Assembly (NCBI RefSeq): GCF_045037415.1
Contig: NZ_CP173438.1
From: Escherichia coli
GTDB lineage: Bacteria > Pseudomonadota > Gammaproteobacteria > Enterobacterales > Enterobacteriaceae
Strand: one strand, 5' to 3'
DNA: 64,000 bases
Positions 11,052 through 11,100 of this stretch are shown here, piece after piece. A model generated the notes under the pieces. The model did no database searches, had not been told where the DNA came from, and was given only the letters and a program-made list of their open reading frames with translations. Each line of letters begins with the position of its first letter. Position 1 is the stretch's first letter. Made by a program: the position numbers and the translations under genes.

Positions 11052-11100
11052 ATACTATAGGGGGGTATGCATTGACATATAGCATACCCCCCTATAGTAT
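11052..11100 (+). promoter_or_regulatory. frmR operator/promoter: perfect 19-bp inverted repeat ATACTATAGGGGGGTATGC / GCATACCCCCCTATAGTAT separated by 11 bp containing TTGACA
   Basis: Read directly; G6/C6 tracts flanked by AT-rich arms match the CsoR/RcnR-family (FrmR) operator type; TTGACA at 11072-11077 with candidate -10 in the right arm; 27 bp upstream of frmR ATG. Confidence 0.7.

What the first reader, a model, noticed from the sequence alone, without database searches (positions are those of the whole stretch)
11052..11100. frmR operator is a perfect 19-bp inverted repeat with G6/C6 tracts enclosing the -35 hexamer
ATACTATAGGGGGGTATGC-11 bp-GCATACCCCCCTATAGTAT; the 11-bp core contains TTGACA. 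This fits the G/C-tract operator class used by CsoR/RcnR-family repressors, and places the repressor directly over the promoter, consistent with tight formaldehyde-relieved repression of frmRAB.
Basis: partly seen in the sequence, partly recalled or inferred. Interest (0 to 1): 0.3.

Follow-up and report, generated by a model that had tools for sequence, protein, structure and literature searches.

The report
Known FrmR operator at frmRAB promoter
This palindrome is the already-described docking site where the E. coli formaldehyde-sensing repressor FrmR sits on its own promoter, so the finding is real and correctly read but ordinary.

Summary
It is a perfect inverted repeat with 21-nt arms, not 19 (11050-11070 / 11082-11102). 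The 11-nt core carries TTGACA. It is the longest perfect inverted repeat in the window; random sequence gives 10-12 nt.

It lies 25 bp upstream of frmR in an E. coli frmR-frmA-frmB operon. Denby et al. 2016 describe this "large inverted repeat centred at -29" as two tandem type I FrmR sites (ATAC-N9-GTAT). They show FrmR binding to the promoter fragment and formaldehyde-relieved repression in vitro. A 2024 biosensor paper transplanted the boxes into a synthetic promoter.

My comparison of 80 frmR-homologue loci refines the picture:
- The functional unit is the 17-bp box, present upstream of 65 of 80 homologues and about 500-fold enriched there.
- Box 1 ends 3 bp before the -35 hexamer. Box 2 covers the -10 hexamer.
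- The G6/C6 homopolymers are specific to Escherichia.
- One lineage (Erwinia) has its boxes in direct orientation.
- E. coli polymorphisms, including K-12's own, fall on the inner GC bases outside the boxes.

The big palindrome is therefore best read as two consensus boxes placed back to back. No base-resolution FrmR footprint was found in the papers I could read.

The parts
11050..11102 (.). Whole operator palindrome: 21-nt perfect arms around an 11-nt core
11052..11068 (+). FrmR box 1 (ATAC-TATAGGGGG-GTAT), a type I CsoR/RcnR-family site; it ends 3 bp upstream of the -35 hexamer
   Evidence: only two such boxes in 64 kb; conserved upstream of frmR homologues; Denby 2016
11060..11065 (+). G6 tract of box 1
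   Evidence: replaced by GTGGAG, GTGTAG, GTGGTG and similar in other genera
11072..11077 (+). -35 hexamer TTGACA, inside the 11-nt core
   Evidence: 10 of 12 consensus match with 17-bp spacer; a TTGAC/TTGAT/TTGCA-type hexamer starts 3 bp after box 1 in 13 of the 16 two-box comparison loci
11084..11100 (+). FrmR box 2 (ATAC-CCCCCTATA-GTAT), the exact reverse complement of box 1; it overlaps the -10 hexamer
   Evidence: this promoter-proximal box is the one retained in single-box lineages
11087..11092 (+). C6 tract of box 2
   Evidence: one E. coli genome record shows C7 here
11095..11100 (+). -10 hexamer TAGTAT at 17-bp spacing; an alternative TATAGT lies at 11093-11098 at 15-bp spacing
   Evidence: in the lineages with 34-bp box spacing, TATAGT is the hexamer that falls at 17 bp (my arithmetic)
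11024..11049 (+). Conserved AT-rich flank upstream of the operator (CCGGATAAATTTTATTCTCCAGTGTT); possibly needed for full repression
   Evidence: homology with K-12 and most E. coli starts here whatever the upstream neighbour; a truncated promoter that lacked DNA upstream of the boxes lost repression (PMC11127321)
11117..11122 (+). Shine-Dalgarno sequence GAGGTG for frmR
   Evidence: conserved as GAGGT in most gammaproteobacterial homologous loci shown
11127..11402 (+). frmR, the formaldehyde-responsive repressor (91 aa; Pro2, Cys35 and His60 present)
11437..12546 (+). frmA, S-(hydroxymethyl)glutathione dehydrogenase
   Evidence: TIGR02818, 743 bits
12639..13472 (+). frmB/fghA, S-formylglutathione hydrolase
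   Evidence: TIGR02821, 398 bits

Best explanation
The palindrome is the autoregulatory operator of the E. coli frmRAB promoter. It is built from two 17-bp FrmR boxes (ATAC-N9-GTAT, each a G/C tract between AT-rich dyad flanks) placed in opposite orientation. Box 1 (11052-11068) ends 3 bp upstream of the -35 hexamer TTGACA and occupies the position where an UP element would lie. Box 2 (11084-11100) covers the end of the promoter spacer and the -10 hexamer. Without formaldehyde, disc-shaped FrmR tetramers occupy the boxes and keep RNA polymerase off the promoter. The likeliest stoichiometry is one tetramer per box, but this is inferred. Formaldehyde cross-links Pro2 to Cys35 between subunits, moves the positively charged DNA-binding patches apart, releases FrmR and lets frmR, frmA and frmB be transcribed. 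Shown in the literature: FrmR binds the promoter fragment, formaldehyde releases it, transcription is repressed and de-repressed in vitro, and the boxes can confer FrmR control on a foreign promoter. Shown here: the anatomy, its statistical non-randomness, and conservation of the boxes and their fixed relation to the -35 and -10 hexamers. Inferred: which bases are contacted, the stoichiometry, which of the two overlapping -10 hexamers is used, and steric exclusion of polymerase as the mechanism of repression.
For: Anatomy. Non-randomness: 21-nt arms against 10-12 in random sequence; the only two boxes in 64 kb. Gene identity. Literature on this promoter: Denby 2016 reports a large inverted repeat at -29, tandem type I sites ATAC/GTAT, Kd about 220 nM against about 3600 nM on unrelated DNA, and loss of binding and of in-vitro repression with formaldehyde. 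Osman 2016 aligns the E. coli and Salmonella frm promoters with G/C tracts and T/A-rich inverted repeats marked; mutating one flanking repeat of the Salmonella site abolished binding. PMC11127321 placed ATAC-N9-GTAT boxes upstream of the -35 and in the spacer of promoter J23100, which gave FrmR-dependent repression with 40-fold induction. Family rule TAC-X9-GTA and the type 1 definition: Tan 2014. The two-box layout with a -35-like hexamer 3 bp after box 1 and TATAGTAT at the end of box 2 recurs in Escherichia, Edwardsiella, Providencia, Aeromonas, Erwinia, Serratia, Morganella and Deefgea; Pantoea has a 4-bp gap and the Citrobacter/Klebsiella variant a 7-bp gap. The 53-bp element is identical in 3554 of 5426 complete E. 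coli genomes and single-copy in nearly all genomes that carry it (median 1 place per genome, at most 2).
Against: No base-resolution footprint of E. coli FrmR on this DNA was found in the papers I could read (the word 'footprint' occurs 0 times). The sort-seq mutational map of Pfrm (Rohlhill 2017) is not held. The same 2024 paper reports that a truncated native promoter still carrying both boxes was not repressed, so the boxes alone may not be sufficient in the native context. Salmonella FrmR binds two tetramers to a single box on a 33-bp probe, so one tetramer per box is not established. The transcription start is only predicted, and I found no mapped start.
Confidence: 0.9

Rival explanations
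1. The palindrome as a whole, rather than two independent boxes, is the functional unit. One version is a single FrmR tetramer that uses both of its faces to clamp box 1 and box 2 and loops out the -35 hexamer. Another is supercoil-driven cruciform extrusion that hides the -35 hexamer in the loop.
For: Denby 2016 raises the two-face possibility because the box centres are about 31 bp apart, against 19 bp in rcnR-rcnA. The arms are perfect for 21 nt and would form a very stable hairpin. In this window the perfect symmetry extends 2 nt beyond each box on both sides.
Against: The centre-to-centre distance varies across homologous two-box promoters (32, 33, 34, 35 and 39.5 bp), so helical phase is not held. 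Erwinia endophytica has the two boxes in direct orientation (7 of 9 central bases match directly, 2 of 9 inverted) and shows no inverted repeat of 8 nt or more. Many lineages manage with a single box. Within E. coli the positions that make the arms longer than the boxes (11069-11070 and 11082-11083) are among the positions that vary in the five variant genomes sampled, and K-12 itself carries C to A at 11083. A permutation test found no significant excess of arm-to-arm identity within loci over between loci (7.33 against 6.89 of 9, p about 0.07).
Confidence: 0.07
2. The inverted repeat is a transcribed stem-loop, such as a terminator or insulator for upstream transcription or a structured RNA, rather than a protein-binding site.
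For: The predicted hairpin is strong. In K-12 the upstream gene yaiO points the same way as frmR, so read-through transcripts could contain it.
Against: No T-run follows either arm, and the terminator scan finds nothing in 10700-11500. In this window the upstream gene tauA is divergent, so there is nothing to terminate. Rfam gives only far-sub-threshold hits to eukaryotic microRNA hairpins, 20-27 bits against gathering scores of 73-100. The element sits upstream of the predicted start of frmR. The Erwinia homologue cannot form the hairpin.
Confidence: 0.02
3. The palindrome is a neutral by-product with no function of its own, for example of a local inverted duplication or of hairpin-templated repair.
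For: Quasi-palindromes can be made perfect by template-switch repair (general knowledge). The perfect 21-nt symmetry exceeds what the boxes need.
Against: Both boxes are individually conserved across alpha-, beta- and gammaproteobacterial frmR loci with about 500-fold local enrichment. They keep a fixed relation to the promoter hexamers. FrmR binds the promoter fragment that carries these boxes, and transplanted boxes can confer FrmR control.
Confidence: 0.01

Closest known systems
E. coli K-12 Pfrm operator as described by Denby et al. 2016 (Sci Rep 6:38879, PMC5146963)
   Same: It is the same locus and the same element: a large inverted repeat centred near -29 and two ATAC-N9-GTAT type I sites forming the arms. 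The sequence is identical to K-12 from 11024 to the frmR start except at two bases.
   Different: This strain has C at 11083 where K-12 has A. The palindrome is therefore perfect for 21 nt here, whereas K-12 has 19 perfect nt followed by a mismatch. By coordinates I measure 32 bp between box centres (11060 and 11092); the paper states 31. The upstream neighbour is tauA here and yaiO in K-12.
E. coli RcnR tandem operator in the rcnR-rcnA intergenic region (TACT-G6-N-AGTA, Iwig and Chivers 2009, as summarised)
   Same: It has two type 1 sites per operator. Each is a G6 tract inside a TAC-N9-GTA frame, bound by a CsoR/RcnR-family tetramer. Recognition is proposed to combine shape readout of an A-like G/C tract with contacts to the flanking dyad.
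   Different: The RcnR site centres are 19 bp apart, against 32 bp here. The G tract is roughly central in the RcnR box, whereas here it is pushed against one half-site with TATA on the other side. The effector is Ni/Co rather than formaldehyde.
Salmonella Typhimurium frmRA operator (Osman et al. 2015, 2016; PMC4528141, PMC5016687)
   Same: It has a C6 tract flanked by a T/A-rich inverted repeat upstream of frmR. The flanking repeat is required for binding, and formaldehyde weakens binding directly.
   Different: It has a single box, not two. Two tetramers bind the 33-bp probe. The regulator is only 52% identical to E. coli FrmR, sits at a different genomic location and lacks frmB.
CsoR type 2 operators (for example Streptomyces lividans ATATACCCCTNAGGGGTATAT; Tan et al. 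2014, PMC3902906)
   Same: They share the TAC-X9-GTA dyad frame and G/C tracts with A-form propensity.
   Different: Type 2 sites carry two short G/C tracts inside one box and bind two tetramers. Here each box has one uninterrupted tract, which makes it type 1.

Membership tests
CsoR/RcnR (DUF156) type 1 operator site | [quoted passage not shown] | tested here: met
   Box 1 is ATAC-TATAGGGGG-GTAT and box 2 is its exact reverse complement. Each has a G6 or C6 tract and an ATAC/GTAT dyad 9 bp apart.
CsoR/RcnR (DUF156) type 1 operator site | The TAC-X9-GTA dyad frame common to family operators | tested here: met
   Both boxes fit exactly. The same frame is found upstream of 65 of 80 frmR homologues, at 7.98 per kb against 0.0157 per kb in the background.
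CsoR/RcnR (DUF156) type 1 operator site | It lies in the promoter of an operon that starts with, or adjoins, a family repressor gene | tested here: met
   The operator ends 25 bp upstream of frmR. The -35 hexamer lies between the boxes and the -10 hexamer lies inside box 2.
CsoR/RcnR (DUF156) type 1 operator site | Direct, effector-sensitive binding of the cognate repressor to these bases | not testable with these tools
   The literature shows FrmR binding to the Pfrm fragment and release by formaldehyde, and that transplanted boxes confer control. No base-resolution footprint was found.
CsoR/RcnR (DUF156) type 1 operator site | An uninterrupted G/C homopolymer as a conserved determinant | tested here: not met
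   Outside Escherichia the tract is interrupted (GTGGAG, GTGTAG, GTGGTG, GAGGGAG) while the ATAC/GTAT dyad and TATAG are kept. The family definition needs only a G/C-rich tract, so membership stands, but the G6/C6 runs are a lineage feature.
FrmR (NCBIfam NF008464, formaldehyde-responsive repressor) | Equivalog-level sequence match | tested here: met
   189.2 bits against a cut-off of 133. RcnR scores only 68 bits against its cut-off of 138. The match to PDB 5LBM covers residues 1-91 at E = 4e-55, and RefSeq assigns it protein WP_001141271.1.
FrmR (NCBIfam NF008464, formaldehyde-responsive repressor) | The sensory residues Pro2 and Cys35 (methylene bridge) plus His60 | tested here: met
   The translation [35 protein letters not shown]35...ESH60 carries the residues defined.
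Intrinsic (Rho-independent) terminator | A G+C-rich stem-loop followed by a run of T | tested here: not met
   There are no terminator-like sites in 10700-11500, and no T-run follows either arm.
Described structured RNA (Rfam 15) | A match at the family gathering score | tested here: not met
   Only eukaryotic microRNA-precursor models match, at 20-27 bits against gathering scores of 73-100. These are generic hairpin matches.

The most novel reading that the evidence does not exclude
The back-to-back arrangement may be functionally exploited rather than incidental. For example, one FrmR tetramer could bridge both boxes with its two faces and wrap the upstream flank, trapping the -35 hexamer in a tight protein-DNA sandwich. 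The perfect 21-nt symmetry seen in most E. coli would then tune this. Such a model would explain why a truncated promoter that keeps both boxes loses repression and why Denby et al. raised the two-face model. My data argue against a strict geometric requirement (variable spacing, a direct-repeat variant, single-box lineages) but do not exclude it for Escherichia.
Probability: 0.1. Interest if true: 0.35.

Novelty: already known. Interest (0 to 1): 0.08.

Why it matters
As a discovery it matters little. The element, its class and its mechanism are published and are already used as a formaldehyde or methylglyoxal biosensor part.

The practical value lies in the refinements:
- The conserved unit is the 17-bp ATAC-N9-GTAT box and its fixed placement (box 1 three bp before the -35 hexamer, box 2 over the -10 hexamer).
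- The G6/C6 runs and the perfect long palindrome are lineage features.
- Natural variants (GTGGAG tracts, 34-bp spacing, direct orientation) form a ready-made panel for engineering FrmR-controlled promoters and for testing how CsoR/RcnR-family discs read DNA. No protein-DNA structure for FrmR turned up in the PDB sequence search.

Tried and rejected
1. Concerted evolution of the two arms, meaning hairpin-templated homogenisation or operator-repressor co-variation. Within-locus identity of the central 9 bases (mean 7.33) was not significantly above cross-locus identity (6.89), permutation p about 0.07 on 9 distinct operators. I rejected it as unsupported: the symmetry is explained by both boxes matching one consensus.

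2. RNA element. The Rfam scan gave only sub-threshold microRNA-hairpin matches, so I rejected this.

3. Terminator. None was found, so I rejected this.

4. Additional FrmR boxes elsewhere in the window, which would indicate a wider regulon. None was found even with 3 mismatches.

5. The sort-seq paper on Pfrm (Rohlhill 2017) would be the nearest thing to a footprint, but it is not held under either id. [quoted passage not shown] From memory, and unverified here, its abstract reports two 19-bp repressor sites, one upstream of the -35 hexamer and one overlapping the -10 hexamer, which would agree with the boxes.

6. A search for an experimentally mapped frmR transcription start found nothing usable. 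A hit in a rydC paper reports only that frmR deletion does not affect rydC.

7. The antisense ORFs across the site (11048-11239 and 11055-11357, minus strand) are mechanical ORFs opposite frmR, and I did not pursue them.

Full report

Yes. Window 11052-11100 reads ATACTATAGGGGGGTATGC, then 11 nt, then GCATACCCCCCTATAGTAT, as quoted. The repeat finder shows that perfect complementarity runs 2 nt further out on each side. The arms are 11050-11070 and 11082-11102, 21 nt each, around the core ATTGACATATA. TTGACA is at 11072-11077.

It is the longest perfect inverted repeat with a spacer of 30 nt or less in the whole 64-kb window. Twenty Markov-1 random windows reached only 10-12 nt, and the analytic expectation for a 21-nt arm is 4.5e-7 per window. 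Folded as single-stranded DNA it would be a 21-bp hairpin at -21.5 kcal/mol, z = -7.3 against shuffles.

**2. Where is it?**

The window is Escherichia coli. The 306-bp tauA-frmR intergenic region is 100% identical to strain SK1144, and the part from 11024 onward is present in 5416 of 5426 complete genomes. The element ends 25 bp before the ATG (11127) of a 91-aa protein with these properties:
- It passes the NCBIfam FrmR equivalog model at 189 bits against a cut-off of 133.
- It matches the E. coli FrmR crystal structure 5LBM over its full length, E = 4e-55.
- RefSeq annotates it as frmR.
- It carries Pro2, Cys35 and His60.

frmA (11437-12546) and frmB/fghA (12639-13472) follow. The consensus promoter scan finds exactly one sigma-70-like site in 10700-11500: TTGACA (11072), a 17-bp spacer, then TAGTAT (ending 11100), matching 10 of 12 positions. 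The -35 hexamer therefore lies in the core of the palindrome and the -10 hexamer lies inside the right arm.

**3. What is already published?**

- Denby et al. [quoted passage not shown] They measured FrmR binding to the promoter fragment (Kd about 220 nM, against about 3600 nM on unrelated DNA), loss of binding with formaldehyde, and repression and de-repression in vitro. They solved the Pro2-Cys35 methylene-bridge mechanism.
- Osman et al. 2016 (PMC5016687) align the E. coli and Salmonella frm promoters with G/C tracts and T/A-rich inverted repeats marked. They show that mutating one flanking repeat of the Salmonella site abolishes binding.
- A 2024 paper (PMC11127321) treats ATAC-N9-GTAT as "the FrmR binding site". 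It placed one copy upstream of the -35 hexamer and one in the spacer of promoter J23100, which produced an FrmR-repressed promoter with 40-fold induction.
- The family-wide rules (type 1 against type 2 sites, the TAC-X9-GTA frame, shape readout of A-like G tracts, RcnR's tandem TACT-G6-N-AGTA sites) are summarised in Tan et al. 2014 (PMC3902906).

**4. What the comparison of related loci adds**

I fetched 80 loci encoding FrmR relatives, 52-100% identical, from one genome per species.

An exact ATAC-N9-GTAT lies within 130 nt upstream of the gene in 65 of the 80 loci. That is 7.98 boxes per kb, against 0.0157 per kb in the other 319 kb of the same loci, about 500-fold enrichment. In the window the pattern occurs only at 11052-11068 and 11084-11100, and no further copy appears even with 3 mismatches.

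Single-box promoters occur in Tatumella, Pasteurellaceae, Brucella/Ochrobactrum and most Burkholderiales and Xanthomonadales loci. The retained box is the promoter-proximal one, ending in TATAGTAT.

Two-box promoters occur in Escherichia, a Citrobacter/Klebsiella variant, Pantoea, Edwardsiella, Providencia, Aeromonas, Erwinia, Serratia, Morganella and Deefgea. Across these:
- A TTGAC/TTGAT/TTGCA-type -35 hexamer starts 3 bp after box 1 in 13 of the 16 comparison loci. The exceptions are Pantoea (4-bp gap) and the two Citrobacter/Klebsiella loci (7-bp gap). A sixteenth two-box locus, Paraburkholderia, has boxes only 23 bp apart and no -35-like hexamer between them.
- Box 2 always carries TATAGTAT at its 3' end. 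That motif contains two overlapping -10-like hexamers, TATAGT and TAGTAT.
- The box centres are 32, 33, 34, 35 or 39.5 bp apart. My arithmetic shows that with 34 bp TATAGT falls at the ideal 17-bp spacing, and with the Escherichia 32 bp TAGTAT does.
- The homopolymeric G6/C6 is confined to Escherichia. Elsewhere the tract reads GTGGAG, GTGTAG, GTGGTG or GAGGGAG.
- In Erwinia endophytica the two boxes are in direct orientation, not inverted (7 of 9 central bases match directly against 2 of 9 inverted). No inverted repeat of 8 nt or more exists there.

**5. Variation inside E. coli points the same way**

The 53-bp element is identical in 3554 genomes, and 1578 more differ by 1-2 bases. In the five variant genomes I pulled, plus K-12 and E. 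albertii, the changes are:
- 11070 C to T or G
- 11082 G to T
- 11083 C to A (this is K-12's own allele)
- a C7 tract in one record
- a GG to CA change at the edge of the G tract in one record
- in E. albertii, GC to AT at 11069-11070, A to G at 11071, and one C to T in the C tract

The ATAC, GTAT, TATAG and TTGACA bases were invariant in this small sample. The inner GC pairs that make the arms longer than the boxes are therefore among the positions that vary, and the laboratory strain's palindrome is less perfect than this one.

A permutation test for arm-to-arm co-variation across 9 distinct operators was not significant (7.33 against 6.89 of 9, p about 0.07). The perfect symmetry needs no explanation beyond two boxes that each match the consensus ATACTATAG-GGGG-GTAT.

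**6. Mechanism**

*Best-supported model, confidence about 0.9.* Two FrmR boxes bracket the -35 hexamer. Box 1 abuts it and occupies the position where an UP element would lie, and box 2 covers the -10 hexamer. Bound FrmR excludes RNA polymerase, and formaldehyde cross-linking releases FrmR.

- Shown in the literature: binding to the fragment, release by formaldehyde, repression in vitro, and transplantability.
- Shown here: anatomy, significance and conservation.
- Inferred: exact contacts, one tetramer per box (Salmonella FrmR puts two tetramers on a single box), and which -10 hexamer is used.

A truncated native promoter that kept both boxes was not repressed. This suggests that the conserved AT-rich flank 11024-11049 contributes, perhaps through the non-specific DNA wrapping proposed for RcnR.

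*Rivals.*
- A whole-palindrome mechanism (one tetramer bridging both boxes, or a cruciform) is not excluded for Escherichia. It is disfavoured by the variable spacing, the direct-repeat Erwinia variant, the single-box lineages and the polymorphism pattern.
- A terminator or RNA hairpin is rejected: no T-run, no terminator call, nothing real in Rfam, and a divergent upstream gene.
- A functionless palindrome is rejected by the conservation of the boxes.

**7. Verdict**

Novelty: already known. The only increments are comparative refinements and the note that this allele is more perfectly palindromic than K-12's. Interest is low.

Noticed in passing
window 11024 (boundary), 9859-10821 (tauA): Homology to K-12 upstream of frmR stops at about 11024. 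Here tauA is the divergent neighbour of frmR, an arrangement that covers the full intergenic query in only 593 of 5426 complete E. coli genomes. K-12 has yaiO, yaiX and IS2 in between.
   Followed up: partly
window 11083: K-12 MG1655 has A where this window has C. The laboratory strain's palindrome therefore has 19 perfect nt followed by a mismatch, and this allele is the more perfect one. About 65% of complete genomes share this window's exact 53-mer.
   Followed up: yes
L008 (Edwardsiella anguillarum plasmid 1), L010 (Enterobacter sp.), L018 (Morganella psychrotolerans): A FrmR variant (84-90% identical to E. coli's) sits behind a nearly identical two-box operator in unrelated genera and on a plasmid. 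The tracts are GTGGAG/CTCCAC, the box spacing is 34 bp, and the perfect arms are 18-21 nt. This suggests a mobile formaldehyde-resistance cassette. Two E. coli plasmid copies of the E. coli-type operator were also counted.
   Followed up: partly
L016 (Erwinia endophytica), about 79 to 30 nt upstream of frmR: The two FrmR boxes are in direct rather than inverted orientation (ATACTGGGATATAGTAT and ATACTGGTGTATAGTAT). TTGAC still lies 3 bp after box 1. This is a natural test case against a requirement for the large palindrome.
   Followed up: partly
L081 (E. coli strain G5), equivalent of window 11087-11092: The C tract is C7 instead of C6 in this genome record. It could be real slippage in the homopolymer or an assembly error.
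   Followed up: no
window 11024-11049: The AT-rich flank with TTTATTCT is conserved across Escherichia and recurs upstream of the plasmid-type operator. A published truncated promoter lacking DNA upstream of the boxes lost FrmR repression (PMC11127321), so this flank may matter.
   Followed up: partly
window 41693-41732: A perfect 18-nt inverted repeat with a 4-nt loop (ATTTCGCTCTCCTTAACT AAAA AGTTAAGGAGAGCGAAAT) lies next to yahK. The best-matching E. coli genomes carry an IS1 insertion in this stretch that the window lacks.
   Followed up: partly
window 61779-61811: A perfect 16-nt inverted repeat with a 1-nt gap (AAACCTGACATTTTGA A TCAAAATGTCAGGTTT) lies in the region between hyxR and the tyrosine invertase gene ipbA. 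This region is present in only about 1,890 of 5,426 genomes. It is possibly related to the invertase-controlled hyxR switch.
   Followed up: no
window 11048-11239 and 11055-11357, minus strand: Mechanical ORFs of 63 and 100 aa run antisense across the operator and frmR. There is no evidence that they are genes.
   Followed up: no
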